Shown: positions 4,001 through 53,460 of the stretch, one piece after another
How the letters are laid out: every line of letters begins with the position of its first letter
Numbering within the stretch: the first letter of the stretch is position 1
From: Eledone cirrhosa
Lineage: Eukaryota
Assembly: GCA_964016885.1 (NCBI GenBank)
Contig: OZ024741.1
Coordinates: forward strand, 266,786,001 to 266,850,000
Direction of reading: 5' to 3'
Length of the DNA: 64,000 bases
Notes under the pieces: generated by a model
The model's database searches: none
Told to the model about the DNA's origin: nothing
What the model saw: only the letters and a program-made list of their open reading frames with translations
Translations under genes and position numbers: made by a program

Positions 4001-4066
4001 TATTTCATTATATATATTTCAGGGATAACATATTAACAATATGCTATGCCTTCCTCAGACAAAATA
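4001..4066 (-). ncRNA. Minimal type-I hammerhead ribozyme, family A, intact core
   Basis: Minus strand reads TATTTTGT-CTGAGGA-[AGGCATAGCATATT/AATATGTTATCCCT]-GAAA-TATATA-TA-ATGAAATA. Confidence 0.8.
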
Positions 4067-5474
4067 CAATATAAACAGTTTTATAGATAAATAGATTCGA
4101 CATACCGTAACAACATCTACTTGCATTTGAGAAGGTTGATTTGGTTGTGACAAAATTGTACACAGAGAGAAAGAAAGAGAGAGAGAAAGAGAGAAAAAGA
4201 GAGAAAAAAAAAGGAAAGAAAAGAAAGACAGAAAACGAAGAAAAAGAAAAAGAAGAAATGCATGGAACAAAATAGAGAGATGGAAAGATAGATAAAGAGA
4301 AGAACTTCATGTAAAGAAACAGAAAGAGATATATATATAGAGAGAGAGAGGAAATAGAGATAGATACATATATAGAAAGCTAGGTAGTGGGACGACTGTT
4401 GAATAACGTATCAATGATACATTTATTTATTTATTTATTTAGCTCTAGTATTAATGTAAGGGAGATATATGGAGGGAAAACCAGCTGTTATATAGGGAGA
4501 GAAAAAATATAGAGAGAGAAAAAAAAAAAAGAGAGAGAGAGAAAATTCAAAAATATCCAGACACAGGCGAGGCGTAAAAAACCTGTTTTAATGTAGAGGT
4601 ATTAGTATTTACAAAACCAGCCTCTGCATTGCAAATATCAGTATTCCTGAATGAGATATGTATCCACAATGTGTGAAAATTAATGATCTTATGTTTAGTT
4701 TTTAAAAAAAAATTCATATGTTTATGTGATAATTACAAACATCTATGTGAATGTACATGATCAATTCTGCAAACCCTAAGTTCACGGAAAGTATTCTCAA
4801 TGCGGTATAAAAATTTAAGTATACATATATGTGTATATAGAGTCAATATTACTATTTCTGTCTCTACTCTACAAGATTATCTATCAAGCAAAGATAGAGC
4901 AGATTTCAATATACTAATAAAAATAAAAATAAAAATATATCGGAAACAAAACTAAACTAAAAATAACAATAATAATAATAAGTAATAATAAAATAGAAAA
5001 CTAAGAAATATTACGAAAGAATATTACATATTAAAAATATTACATATTAAAAAATTTTACATATTAAAAATATTAAAAATAAAAATTAGGAAATACTACA
5101 GTAATAAAAATAAAATAAACCACAAAGATCAACCCTTCAAAATTAATTGACAATATATTGCCAAGTTCATTATAAACATCAGAGTCGAAAAACAGATAAA
5201 GCCAAAAATTATCTATCAAATCGCATCTAGCAAAGATCATTTCAAAAAGTATAGGATGCCCAATTTGGTCTACATGTGTTCTTATATTTAATATAGAAGT
5301 TTATCTAGTGTAACGTTTATTCGAAATATTTGGAGCATCAACTTTTAGGATAGCTTCATGAAGAATGTTTAAATAAATAAATAAATAAAATAAAAATAAA
5401 AATAAAAAGAGTAAAAAGAGAATCAAAGATTTATCGGCTAGTTTCCCATATAATTATAAATCAAACTAAATATA

Positions 5475-5849
5475 CTACATTTTAAATTTAAATTTATATT
5501 TAAACGTTGAGTTTAATCTATGTTTGCAACAACTGAATAAATTTGTCCGTAGATTAAGGGAATTTTTAGATTTTAGTATAAAGAATATCTCCTCTGCGCA
5601 GAGGTCACATGTCTCAGAGGATGAATTAAAAGGAATCCCTCTTGAGACTATATTCCAAGCCGTCGAATATCTAACGTTATCTAGCTTAAGTTGCCATAGT
5701 ATGCCTGATAGTGCCGTTGAAGATTTTTTACTTGGATCTGTGAAAGAATTCTTGTGGTTATTATAGCGAAGTTTAAATTCCGTCGATGTGGAACCGACGT
5801 AGTTAAAAGAATTAGAGTCAGTATTAACATTACAATTCAGTATTAACAT
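5475..5849 (-). pseudogene. Penelope-type GIY-YIG endonuclease C-terminal remnant
   Basis: Motifs YVGSTSTEFKLRYNNHKNSF, TALSGILWQLK, CDLCAEEIFFI and LNLRTNLFSCCKHR are typical of PLE endonucleases. Confidence 0.88.
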
Positions 5850-5963
5850 TACAATTCTTTCTCTCTGTGTACAATTTTGTCACAACCAAATCAACCTTCT
5901 CAAATGCAAGTAGATGTTGTTACGGTATGTCGAATCTATTTATCTATAAAACTGTTTATATTG

Positions 5964-6029
5964 TATTTTGTCTGCGGAAGGCATAGCATATTGTTAATAT
6001 GTTATCCCTGAAATATATATAATGAAATA
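5964..6029 (+). ncRNA. Hammerhead motif, family A, core variant CUGCGGA (likely impaired)
   Basis: Mirror of 4001-4066 with one core substitution. Confidence 0.65.
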
Positions 6030-6228
6030 AATATAGTTTTATAAATATAGTTTCCATTTATTTAATATTGTAAATATACTCCAAATATTTGTCGAGTGCT
6101 TTTATATCAGTTATAAATATTTACTAGTTGTAACACAACAATTTAAATATAACTTTCCATATATATATATATATATATATATATATATATATATATATAT
6201 ATATATATATATATATATATATATATAT

Positions 6229-50152: not shown

Positions 50153-51288
50153 ACATCAAAAACACGCGACATAGGCAGTGGAAAAACACGAACACATGCC
50201 TTTTATTGTCAGCTGTTTCAGAGAGAGAGAGAGAGAGAGAGAGAGAGAGAGAGAGAGAGAGAGAGAGAGAGAGAGAGAGAGAGAGGGAGTAAGGGTGGGA
50301 GATAAAGTGAACGAAGAAGAAGAAGAAGAAAAGAAGAAGAAGAATAAGAATAAGAAGAAGACACGGCAAGGGGGATGAGAGAGAGAGAGAGAGAGAGAGA
50401 GAGTAAATGATAAATGAAAGTAAATGAGTAATGGGAAGAACGGTAAAACACAGCCTGGTGTGAGGCAGGAGGGGAAGAACAAAAGATCGTTCTCCAGTTT
50501 TTAAAAACACTTTATTTTATGTTGCTTCAGTCCACTCAGCTGGCAAAAAAATGATTTGAGCCTCTAGTTTAAGAGGCCAGCCTTGTAACACAATGTCACC
50601 CTGAATTTCCATGAGAACTACGTTATGGATTCACGAGTCTGTGGAATGCTCAGCCACTTATGCGGTAATTTCACAAGCATGCAGACTCGTTGATTTGATT
50701 GGATCAACTGGAGCACTAATTGTCGGAAACGACGGAGATCCAACTAATATATGTATGCGCGCGCGCACGTGTGTGTGTATGTGTGTGTGTGTGTGAAAAT
50801 AAAGCAAAAGTCACAAATAAGTAGTTAATAAGTTCATTTTTTTACGACCGTACGATCATTTCAGAAGGTTGAGAGATCGCTACCTGTTTCTAGTGCTGAA
50901 ATCCCTGATCAATCCCACCGCCTTCCTCGGTAACATTGTTTGATCAACTAACCCTCTGAAACGATCGTAAAACAATGAATTAATTAACTACCTATCTCTA
51001 ACTTTTGTTTTATTTTCATTGTTCAATACACACACACACACACACACATTTAGATATACATACATACATATATATATATATAAGTAGAAGGGGTATTTAA
51101 TTTGTTGGAAATCCGACAAATATAAATATAAATGTTTATAACTGATTTAGAGCACTCAACAAGTTCCTGGAGTAAATATTCAATGATATTAAATAAATGG
51201 AAACTATATTTATAAAACCATCCAGAGAATATCCAACTGATAAGGTATGATTTTCCTGGCTATGTCTCTATTTATAAAACAAACTTTG

Positions 51289-51352
51289 TATTTTATCTGA
51301 AGAAAGCGTACAAATGTTGTCTTGGTACCTTTGAAATATATATAATAAAATA
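51289..51352 (+). ncRNA. Hammerhead ribozyme, family A variant, within short insert ~51082-51400
   Basis: TATTTTAT-CTGAAGA-AAGCGTAC...GTACCTTT-GAAA-TATATA-TA-ATAAAATA. Confidence 0.75.
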
Positions 51353-51628
51353 AATATGGTTTTATAAATATAGTTTCCATTTATTTTATATCATTGTATA
51401 TATATGTGTGTGTATATATATATATGTATCTTTAGGTTTGTTGGTTCACCACTAGATAGAACTGGTCATTCCGTATGGTCAATCTCGGTGTAATATTGTG
51501 AAGAGTACTCAACGCAGTGCAGTTCATCCATCTTCGTTTGTGTAGTTGGTGGTGCGAATACGGAGTTAATTATAAATAAAATAAAATAACAGGAGGCTGG
51601 ACTGGTGTAAATCCTTGAAATGTTTATT

Positions 51629-51686
51629 ATACTATGATCATTTCAATGACCGAGTTCCATATGAATCCGGTGATATCATCAGGTAT
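51629..51686 (-). ncRNA. Hammerhead motif, family C
   Basis: Mirror of 53403-53460. Confidence 0.7.
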
Positions 51687-53402
51687 TGGAATATAACAAA
51701 GGAATATGTAAAAAAACATGGGTCCGAAAAATCAGAGACAGAGACAAAGAGGACGACTGACCAACTAGCTGCCTTTATCTCGGCCAGTCGCCCTCAAAGT
51801 GGTGGTAACTGAATCTATTAATGAACATCTGGTGAGGGGGTGAAGGCTTATAATGCACTACCACCTACCCGTCAAAGAAAAAGGGGGAGCAAGAAAGGGG
51901 GAAAGAAGTCAGTGTAGGTCACACTACATTCATGCTAGAAAATGCCGCGAAAAAATGCTACTCCAAAGAATCTATAATGGGTGTCTGTATGGTCTAATGT
52001 GTGAACCGAAGATTGGAAGGTTAAACTTATGTTGCGAGTTATAGGATGAAATTAAATTAAATTAAAAATATTAAATTGCAAAATGATAAATTGAAAAATA
52101 AGTTATTAGAGAATTAAAGGTTAAGGTAGCGAGATGTATTTATTTAATGAACTTACGGAGAGAGTCTTATATGAAAAAATTTATCTCGATAAGATATTAG
52201 GATGGGATATAGAGTAAAGATTTCGATTGGGAGTCCCAGCCAGCACCCCGCCCCACCATGAGTCAGCCAGTCTTGAGTGGTATCGTCCAGCGAAAGAAAT
52301 TGAAATTAATTTTTTCGAGTACTCTACGAACGTAGCTACCTTAGGCCCCGGGAGCGCTAGCGGGAACTCCACAATTTCGACTTATAACCCGGACTAACTG
52401 AGACTTTAAAATAATTTTGGTCTATTTGCACTTTTCGACTTGTGTGGTGGCTTTTCCCGGCTGCGCGCTGGGCACTCGGAAAGTTCAGCTTTCCATGAGT
52501 GCCCGGAAAAATAAATTTCTCCTCTTTCGGTAAACGGCTTGCTTTTCCCCGGTCCCACCGCGGCCGCCTGTTTTGGCCGCCATATTATACTTATACCTAT
52601 AAACTCCAGGTTTAGGCATAACTATTAGCTGTATCATGCCTCTACTGGCACGTAAATAATCCCCTCATGTGTGATTTAATACTATTCGTTTGGTATAGAC
52701 GATGGCCTGTCGTAATTGTGGAGTTCCCGCTAGCGCTCCCGGGGCCTAAGGTAGCTACGTTCGTAGAGTACTCGGAAAAATTAATTTCAATTTCTTTCGC
52801 TGGACGATACCACTCAAGACTGGCTGACTCATGGTGGGGCGGGGTGCTGGCTGGGACTCCCAATCGAAATCTTTACTCTATATCCCATCCTAATATCTTA
52901 TCGAGATAAATTTTTTCATATAAGACTCTCACCGTAAGTTCATTAAATAAATAAATCTCGCTACCTTAATCTTTAATTCTCTAATAACATTTTTCAATTT
53001 ATCATTTTGCAATTTAATATTTTTAATTTAATTTAATTTCATCCTATAACTCGCAACATAAGTTTAACCTTCCAATCTTCGGTTCACACATTAGACCATA
53101 CAGACACCCATTATAGATTCTTTGGAGTAGCATTTTTTCGCGGCATTTTCTAGCATGAATGTAGTATGACCTACACTGACTTCTTTCCCCCTTTCTTTCT
53201 TCCCCTTTTTCTTTGATGGAGAGGTGGTAGTGCATTATAAGCCTTCACCCCCTCACCAGATGTTCATTAATAGATTCAGTTGCCACCACTTTGAGGGCGA
53301 CTGGCCGAGATAGAGGCAGCTAGTTGGTCAGTCGTCCTCTTTGTCTCTGTCTCTGATTTTTCGGACCCAAGGTTTTTTTACATATTCCTTTGTTATATTC
53401 CA

Positions 53403-53460
53403 ATACCTGATGATATCACCGGATTCATATGGAACTCGGTCATTGAAATGATCATAGTAT
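53403..53460 (+). ncRNA. Hammerhead motif, family C
   Basis: ATAC-CTGATGA-stem II-GAAA-TGATCA-TA-GTAT. Confidence 0.7.

What the first reader, a model, noticed from the sequence alone, without database searches (positions are those of the whole stretch)
4001..53460. Consistent outward polarity of paired ribozymes plus a one-sided tail
Seen: wherever both arms keep motif sequence, the left motif is on the minus strand and the right on the plus strand (4001/5964, 10342/10446, 28232/29074, 33399/33517, 35189/35351, 51629/53403; partial pairs at 49051/49850 and 62557/62580). One arm usually extends ~70-150 bp further (6071-6160, 10146-10290, 29166-29250, 33270-33353, 35441-35510, 51431-51575). 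Inference: both insertion junctions are element 3' ends, one full-length and one stopping at a shorter point. This suggests twin priming or a template switch on both DNA strands. Either-strand transcript would also carry an antisense copy able to mask its own ribozyme.
Basis: partly seen in the sequence, partly recalled or inferred. Interest (0 to 1): 0.75.

Follow-up and report, generated by a model that had tools for sequence, protein, structure and literature searches.

The report
Twin-primed Penelope insertions, hairpin-marked ends
These back-to-back, ribozyme-shaped pairs are the two ends of Penelope-type jumping-gene insertions, a published shape; nearly every pair has one long and one short end, and in five of six families both ends stop just before a copy of the same short motif, a predicted RNA hairpin that likely tells the copying enzyme where to start on each strand of the cut DNA.

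Summary
The pairs are insertions of Hydra-clade Penelope-like elements (PLEs) in (TA)n. Head-to-head inverted pLTRs with a tail at one end are published PLE anatomy.

Numbers: of 140 same-family neighbour pairs, 115 face outward, 7 inward, 18 the same way. Of 108 outward pairs with both ends classed, 102 join one long and one short end. Tails are 70-150 nt, against 30-40 published.

Correction: the long end is not 'full-length'; the element reads on past it. Both ends are internal start points, mostly 3-7 nt before a repeated RCTC..GAGY motif (five families; second copy not found in family D). The tail sits on the 5'-longer arm in 25 pairs and the shorter in 26, which excludes fold-back of one cDNA as the general route. 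Best reading: twin target-primed reverse transcription from two motif-set sites, likely by a dimer on one RNA (inferred). Antisense masking adds little: single arms already fail to fold the ribozyme in prediction.

The scan noted this before on other DNA: the twin hairpin in this genome (e1-8804881), long/short pairing in other genomes.

The parts
3961..5854 (-). Family A insertion 1, left arm: short end, intact hammerhead motif (4058-4009), 3' UTR and C-terminal GIY-YIG part of the ORF (5846-5505)
   Evidence: tblastn 96% to family A ORF residues 616-729
5855..6158 (+). Family A insertion 1, right arm: hammerhead with changed core (5972-5978), tail 6071-6158
6078..6100 (+). Motif 1 (RCTC..GAGY RCT hairpin) just 3' of the family A short end
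   Evidence: outer stem pairing probability 0.97 in the A fold
10147..10416 (-). Family B insertion 1, left arm with tail 10147-10289; motif 1 at 10281-10219
10417..10556 (+). Family B insertion 1, right arm, short end
13928..14251 (.).
28185..28959 (-). Family C left arm: short end, hammerhead cut site at 28235; the 'spacer' belongs to this arm
   Evidence: 670 nt 5' of the cut against 149 for the tailed arm
28960..29250 (+). Family C right arm: hammerhead cut site at 29114, tail 29166-29250, motif 1 at 29170-29226
33271..33491 (-). Family A (older subfamily) left arm with tail 33271-33353
33496..33620 (+). Family A (older subfamily) right arm, short end
35159..35297 (-). Family D left arm, short end, hammerhead cut site at 35194
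35298..35507 (+). Family D right arm, cut site at 35401, tail 35441-35507, motif 1 at 35444-35467
48962..49841 (-). Pair E left arm: degenerate hammerhead, tail with a motif-1 variant (49005-48980), ORF C-terminal remnant (49841-49440)
   Evidence: tblastn E 4e-15 to family A ORF
49834..49898 (+). Pair E right arm, short end
51090..51400 (.).
51432..52381 (-). Family B insertion 2, left arm with tail 51432-51575
52382..53505 (+). Family B insertion 2, right arm, short end; the 327-nt 'spacer' is the 5' part of this arm
53770..60599 (.). Likely one interrupted family G pair: minus short end at 53770, plus long end at 60599, ORF C-terminal part 58337-59230 on plus
   Evidence: that the two ends belong to one insertion is inferred
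62447..62629 (.). Pair F: arms 62512-62568 (minus, tail to about 62447 with a degenerate motif 1) and 62573-62629 (plus, short end); only the 3' half of the hammerhead
62626..62865 (.). Family G outward pair (minus short, plus tail only)

Best explanation
Each pair is one insertion of a Hydra-clade Penelope-like retroelement into (TA)n, likely made when both strands of the cut target prime reverse transcription at two fixed internal sites of the element RNA. Shown: two sharp end points per family; one of each per insertion; both lie a few bases 5' of a copy of the motif RCTC-(inner stem)-TN-GAGY-RCT; either arm can be the 5'-longer one. Inferred: the motif is an RNA hairpin bound by the element protein; a dimer binds the two copies on one RNA, each half starts just upstream of its copy using AT-rich pairing with the TA target end; the two cDNAs stop at variable points and are joined head to head by end joining. 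Tail length then equals the spacing of the two motif copies. The hammerheads face outward only because they lie in the pLTR near each start.
For: Polarity 115 outward to 7 inward; 102 of 108 classed outward pairs are long+short, 3 long+long, 3 short+short (blind blocks 15 of 17). End points relative to the hammerhead cut, by start of the TA run: A +49/+137, B +53/+198-205, C +48/+134-141, D +36/+102-112, G +43/+132. Read-through copies carry motif 2 just past the long end in A, B, C, G, H; predicted for G, it was found at 260 genomic sites, reversed control 0. Exact match to a read-through copy stops 5 nt before the motif in 27 of 31 TA-ending copies (A short), 3 nt in 22 of 24 (A long), 4 nt in 16 of 18 (C short), 4 nt in 9 of 12 (D short), 6 nt in 9 of 10 (G long). 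First stem pair: A-U 6, G-C 7, G-U 1, A-C 0 in 14 motifs (Fisher p=0.005, not corrected for kinship). The motif is visible by eye in four published Hydra consensus sequences, twice before the ORF in Hydra-1_Ajap and with a compensatory change in Hydra-1_Crog. Tail on the 5'-longer arm 25, shorter 26, equal 10 of 61. Arms of one insertion share minor alleles more than permuted arms (A 42 vs 4.7, B 24 vs 5.8, D 32 vs 8.5). In vitro, the anole PLE protein cuts and extends both strands, starts at two internal sites that bound the tail, and is modelled as a dimer (PMC11167929).
Against: No motif 2 found for family D in three pattern searches, although D shows the same long+short pairing (18 of 19 classed pairs). 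Folding supports the hairpin for A1, A2, B2, D1, I1, weakly for G1 (0.36), and not for B1, C1, C2, H1, H2, J1 or the L147 variant of G2; in H the two GAGYRCT halves pair with each other instead. End offsets are looser for B long (2-11 nt), C long (2-16 nt) and G short (7-12 nt). Shared alleles cannot tell one RNA molecule from one source locus, family C gave no signal (0 vs 0), and the A permutation maximum (41) nearly reached the observed 42. Both arms copy the same stretch, so one RNA would need strand displacement, which is untested. No biochemistry exists for a Hydra-clade protein; the in vitro work is on a Poseidon element.
Confidence: 0.63

Rival explanations
1. Twin priming, but from two separate RNA molecules, or with ends set mainly by AT-rich pairing with the TA target and not by the motif.
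For: Both end points lie in AT-rich stretches that can pair with (TA)n; family D pairs long with short without a detected motif 2; two RNAs need no strand displacement.
Against: Independent choice of site predicts about half long+long or short+short; seen 6 of 108. Many other AT-rich stretches in the pLTR are not used as ends.
Confidence: 0.15
2. The motif works as DNA: the GIY-YIG endonuclease recognises it in a cDNA or donor intermediate and cuts at two points, so the ends are resolution cuts, not start sites.
For: Craig et al. ascribe the tail to EN-mediated resolution (PMC8557442); the Drosophila Penelope EN needed the tail to cut plasmid DNA (as cited in PMC11167929); predicted RNA folding is mixed.
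Against: Direct mapping in the anole element put RT start sites at the tail boundaries; a G-U pair and inner stems of 7-51 nt fit a single-stranded fold better than a duplex site, though single-stranded cDNA is not excluded.
Confidence: 0.13
3. One cDNA folds back or switches template and copies itself (self-priming, on a sense or antisense template).
For: Proposed for Adineta PLEs from palindromes at the inverted junction (PMC3846280); 10 of 61 pairs are near-symmetric hairpins; arms share alleles.
Against: A fold-back copy cannot reach beyond the first cDNA at either end, yet the short-ended arm is over 300 nt longer in 11 pairs against 12 for the tailed arm. Of 36 junctions, 13 show 0-4 nt overlap, 7 have 1-4 extra nt and 16 have 8-42 extra nt, often local duplications.
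Confidence: 0.07
4. The palindromes are assembly or read chimeras.
For: No read or contig bridged the one window junction tested (28959/28960); the region is very repetitive.
Against: Arms differ by 0.5-20% and have unequal, family-fixed ends. Raw reads of two other samples show over 5,000 loose (TA)n ends each at the family A short end and a few opposite-strand joints; contigs of another organism label show TA ends at both points. The shape is published for other animals.
Confidence: 0.02

Closest known systems
Hydra clade of C-terminal EN+ Penelope-like elements (Craig et al. 2021, PMC8557442; section 11, passages and parts of the supplement read; includes Hydra-1_Obim of Octopus bimaculoides)
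   Same: RT plus C-terminal GIY-YIG, DKT, CxCx5C linker, CxxC and CxH, no CCHH, hammerhead in the pLTR, (TA)n target, partial tandems with an inverted 5'-truncated copy, tail at one end.
   Different: Units are 3.8-4.5 kb against 'generally under 3 kb'; RWR in place of RWK; tails 70-150 nt against the 30-40 bp given for PLEs in general; the repeated motif and the strict long+short pairing are not in the passages read.
Poseidon element of Anolis carolinensis in vitro (Frangieh et al. 2024, PMC11167929; parts 1-2 of 4 read, covering the main text)
   Same: Two internal RT start sites bound the tail; both target strands are cut and extended; AT-rich target; dimer model; hammerhead not needed for insertion.
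   Different: Other clade; starts lie in one AC-rich stem-loop inside the ORF, here upstream of the ORF; no repeated motif reported; inverted products not analysed. Its sequence file could not be read here, so the motif was not looked for in it.
Inverted pLTR plus tail in Adineta vaga PLEs (Arkhipova et al. 2013, PMC3846280; passages)
   Same: Head-to-head arrangement the most frequent; optional 31-bp tail on one inverted pLTR.
   Different: They propose self-priming on an antisense template and see target duplications; here arm lengths argue against fold-back and duplications cannot be read in (TA)n.
Minimal type I hammerheads of metazoan PLEs (Cervera and de la Pena 2014, PMC4209133; part 1 of 4 and passages)
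   Same: Short palindromic stem III, long stem II; dual motifs 100-700 bp apart on opposite strands noted in Schistosoma.
   Different: Direction and end pairing were not tabulated in the passages read.
LINE-1 twin priming (recalled; search listing only)
   Same: Both target strands prime on the element RNA; the cDNAs are joined through microhomology.
   Different: In LINE-1 the two pieces copy different, adjacent RNA stretches, the second primer lands at variable sites and only some insertions invert; here both arms copy the same stretch from two fixed sites and most ends are in such pairs.

Membership tests
EN+ Penelope-like elements | Single ORF with RT and C-terminal GIY-YIG endonuclease | tested here: met
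   Read-through copies: 737 aa (A, L141), 821 aa (C, L161), 734 aa partial (G, L147) with YRDD and a GIY-YIG-like motif. Pfam gave no hit at E<=0.1 for any, so this rests on motifs and likeness by eye to published Hydra proteins.
EN+ Penelope-like elements | Partial tandems forming pLTRs, with an adjacent inverted 5'-truncated copy | tested here: met
   L141, L142 (A), L123 (B), L212 (H): direct pLTRs plus inverted arm.
EN+ Penelope-like elements | Hammerhead motif in the pLTR on the sense strand | tested here: met
   Motif on the ORF strand in L141, L161, L212; 74 hits vs 1 in shuffles. Cleavage not tested.
EN+ Penelope-like elements | [quoted passage not shown] | tested here: inconclusive
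   One-sided tail met (102 of 108); length is 70-150 nt, outside the published range.
EN+ Penelope-like elements | Target site duplication | tested here: inconclusive
   39 of 46 ends in blind blocks abut a TA run (background 4.8%), which hides duplications.
Hydra clade | RWK motif near the N terminus | tested here: met
   RWR at residue 38 in A and C; RWR also stands in published Hydra-1_Crog.
Hydra clade | DKT in place of DKG | tested here: met
   SDKT in A, C and G; an unrelated PLE in L153 has ADKG.
Hydra clade | CxCx5C linker, no CCHH, CxxC and CxH in the endonuclease | tested here: met
   Pattern hits in A, C, G; no cysteine pair inside the GIY-YIG core (against the definition).
Hydra clade | Insertion into (TA)n | tested here: met
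Hydra clade | Placement in the RT phylogeny | not tested
   Published proteins could be read but not loaded into the tools.
Hydra clade (families B, D, F) | Own coding ORF | tested here: inconclusive
   The 1.9-kb B unit has no tblastn hit to the ORFs, so it is likely non-autonomous; no read-through copy of D or F was obtained. They are filed by shared anatomy and motif only.
Non-LTR retrozymes | Head-to-tail arrays of short non-coding hammerhead units | tested here: not met
   The window pairs are single inverted arms, and A, C, E and G carry ORF pieces.

The most novel reading that the evidence does not exclude
Hydra-clade PLEs carry a duplicated RNA hairpin, conserved from corals to cephalopods, that works as a pair of placement signals: a protein dimer binds both copies on one RNA and starts one cDNA on each target strand. 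Twin priming would then be the normal insertion route, and tail length a direct read-out of the spacing of the two hairpins.
Probability: 0.4. Interest if true: 0.72.

Novelty: new variant of a known kind. Interest (0 to 1): 0.5.

Why it matters
Polarity and the one-sided tail are already in print, so the finding as written is not new. How PLEs make their inverted repeats and tails is still called an open question in the papers read. This genome has a young family with about 50 long open frames among the 150 best hits (counted by eye), strict long+short pairing, and a short motif beside both ends. That gives a precise bench test: move or break one hairpin and one end should move or vanish. It would also define the cis signal by which non-coding units such as family B borrow the enzyme.

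Tried and rejected
Rfam: no hammerhead family at gathering score or in the rows shown; the miRNA hits there are microsatellite hairpins. Pfam: no hit for four PLE ORFs. The first hammerhead descriptors missed families B and D or A and B; replaced by a looser one plus homology. Family D motif 2: 0 hits, 7 hits all beyond a microsatellite run, 1 unrelated hit. Clustering of arm 5' starts, a lead from earlier notes: broad in A, B and C; D has a peak at -88 to -90 (20 of 71 arms); peaks at reference breaks (G -39, C -252, D -104, A -12) are artefacts; inconclusive. One search used bad anchors for B1, H1 and C2; redone, where B1 gave only 4 copies and H none usable. No RNA holder listed. The locus-specific junction at 28959/28960 was not covered. 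Nine of 70 pairs were dropped from the arm-length count for under 80% coverage by the reference, and 7 of 115 outward pairs had an unclassed end. Targeted loci are top-scoring, hence young, copies; only the 800-kb blocks are blind. Supplement 2 of PMC11167929 gave only figure labels and its sequence file was unreadable; they may bear on whether Poseidon has a like motif. No paper describing the repeated motif turned up in five searches; most subscription journals are not in that library.
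Full report
Setting. The window lies in a 3.0-Gb genome rich in TA microsatellites.

Observation. All eight pairs are real inverted arms with the left arm on minus and the right on plus. The motifs are minimal type I hammerhead shapes with a short palindromic stem III; a descriptor found 74 in 864 kb against 1 in shuffles. Rfam does not list them. The window holds further pairs of the same kind at 13928-14251, 51090-51400, 62626-62865 and probably 53770-60599.

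Polarity and end pairing. I took top hits for four window families, widened 60 of them to 10 kb, and fetched 800 kb of blind blocks from six contigs. With eight family references, 140 same-family neighbour pairs within 9 kb gave 115 outward, 7 inward and 18 same-strand. The blind blocks alone gave 17, 2 and 2. The inward pairs that I traced join ends of neighbouring insertions. Each family has two sharp end points, and tails run from about 70 nt (D) to 150 nt (B). Of 115 outward pairs, 102 are long+short, 3 long+long, 3 short+short and 7 have an unclassed end. The tail is on the left in 55 and on the right in 47. Ends abut a TA run in 39 of 46 cases against 4.8% background.

What the elements are. 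In internal pLTRs the sequence reads on past the long end into an ORF: 737 aa in family A (L141), 821 aa in C (L161). These have RWR, DKT, YRDD, a CxCx5C linker, CxxC and CxH and no CCHH, matching the Hydra clade of PLEs. Pfam gave no hit. The spacers of window pairs A1 and E hold the C-terminal part of such an ORF. Family A is young: the 150 best hits are 97-100% identical and about 50 have open frames of 738 aa or more (counted by eye). The B unit is 1.9 kb with no ORF hit, so it is likely non-autonomous. The long end is therefore not the end of the element.

What sets the two ends. Just past the short end of A, B, C, D, G, H, I and J lies the motif RCTC-(7-51 nt)-TN-GAGY-RCT, and a second copy lies just past the long end in read-through copies of A, B, C, G and H. 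The second copy is never part of a terminal arm. Predicted for G, it was found at 260 sites with a control of 0. For D three patterns failed. Terminal copies leave the read-through sequence mostly 3-7 nt before the motif, with wider spread for B long, C long and G short; the exact base is blurred because these stretches are AT-rich. The first stem pair covaries (A-U 6, G-C 7, G-U 1, A-C 0), but related motifs are not independent. Energy folding supports the hairpin for 5 of 13 motifs, weakly for one, and not for seven. By eye the motif is in published Hydra consensus sequences from coral (Hydra-2_Amil), sea cucumber (Hydra-2_Ajap; twice before the ORF in Hydra-1_Ajap) and a copepod (Hydra-1_Crog, with a compensatory change); I did not see a clear copy in the stretches shown for Hydra-1_Obim or Hydra-1_Amil.

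Twin priming or fold-back. For 70 long+short pairs with a unit reference, 61 were covered well enough. The tailed arm reached further 5' in 25, the short-ended arm in 26, and 10 were within 20 nt; at a 300-nt margin it is 12 to 11. Examples of the second kind are L148 (3422 vs 588 nt), L157 (3627 vs 505) and window pair A1 (1829 vs 167). A cDNA that folds back cannot give an arm with sequence absent from the first arm at both ends, so both arms must come from a longer template. Junctions show 0-4 nt overlap (13 of 36), 1-4 extra nt (7) or 8-42 extra nt, often local duplications (16; some reflect a deletion in my reference). This looks like end joining (inference). Arms of one insertion share minor alleles in A, B and D, which points to one source but not to one molecule.

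Mechanism. Most likely the protein cuts both strands of (TA)n, each end primes a cDNA just upstream of one motif copy, and the cDNAs are joined head to head. One RNA with two binding sites explains why long and short ends are coupled; it needs strand displacement, which is untested. The anole PLE protein cuts and extends both strands, starts at two sites that bound the tail, and does not need its hammerhead. The main rivals are two RNAs, and cuts at a DNA form of the motif.

Masking. Fold-back transcripts would form long duplexes (-190 to -450 kcal/mol), but stem I has probability under 0.01 in single arms too. A single minimal PLE hammerhead was inactive in vitro. Masking is thus a by-product with no sign of function.

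Artefact check. Raw reads from two other samples show over 5,000 TA loose ends each at the family A short end and some opposite-strand joints, and another organism label shows both ends. The one window junction tested was not covered.

Known and new. The inverted 5'-truncated copy, head-to-head direction and one-sided tail are published, as are hammerhead pairs on opposite strands. Not found in five searches or in the passages read: the pairing statistics, the arm-length test and the repeated motif. I noted the motif before consulting the scan's notes, which hold the same reading for this genome and twin-priming readings for other genomes; these notes are not independent support.

Verdict. Real; a longer-tailed variant of known PLE anatomy with a testable cis signal. 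Interest 0.5.

Noticed in passing
L208-L209 (G000:C3:200076135-200084426): Array of about 468-nt hammerhead units, 3 on minus then 15 on plus, so a retrozyme-like array also faces outward.
   Followed up: no
L124:6152-8096 (minus); window 51432-53505: Family B has a 1.9-kb tandem unit with pLTR, tail and both motifs but no tblastn hit to the ORFs: a likely non-autonomous PLE.
   Followed up: partly
motif 3' half, e.g. window 6094-6101: GAGYRCTY is near-palindromic; in family H the two copies are predicted to pair with each other, an alternative fold that could bring the two start sites together.
   Followed up: partly
L131:3145, L134:4498, L113:2307, L094:1491: A few arms begin within 3 nt of the hammerhead cut site, which could be copies of cleaved RNA; too few to test.
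   Followed up: partly
family D loci L091-L120: Arm 5' starts peak at 88-90 nt before the cut site (20 of 71), possibly an RNA 5' end.
   Followed up: partly
window 10827-10915, 19708-19840, 42777-42829, 53641-53741: Family of short perfect-looking palindromes next to TA runs.
   Followed up: no
window 41460-42344, 46690-48150, 49917-50156, 21840-21922, 23553-23772: Another repeat family in nested inverted copies, with no hammerhead hit under my descriptors.
   Followed up: no
window 35569-36178 and 62264-62443: Inverted pair 35651-35845/35984-36178 of a further repeat, directly beside pair D.
   Followed up: no
window 971-3893 and 6593-9192; 22058-22612: Long arrays of a 5-nt-based repeat, and a 69-bp tandem repeat.
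   Followed up: no
L153:6596-8566: A 657-aa PLE ORF of another clade (DKG, YLDD), only 25% like family A.
   Followed up: no
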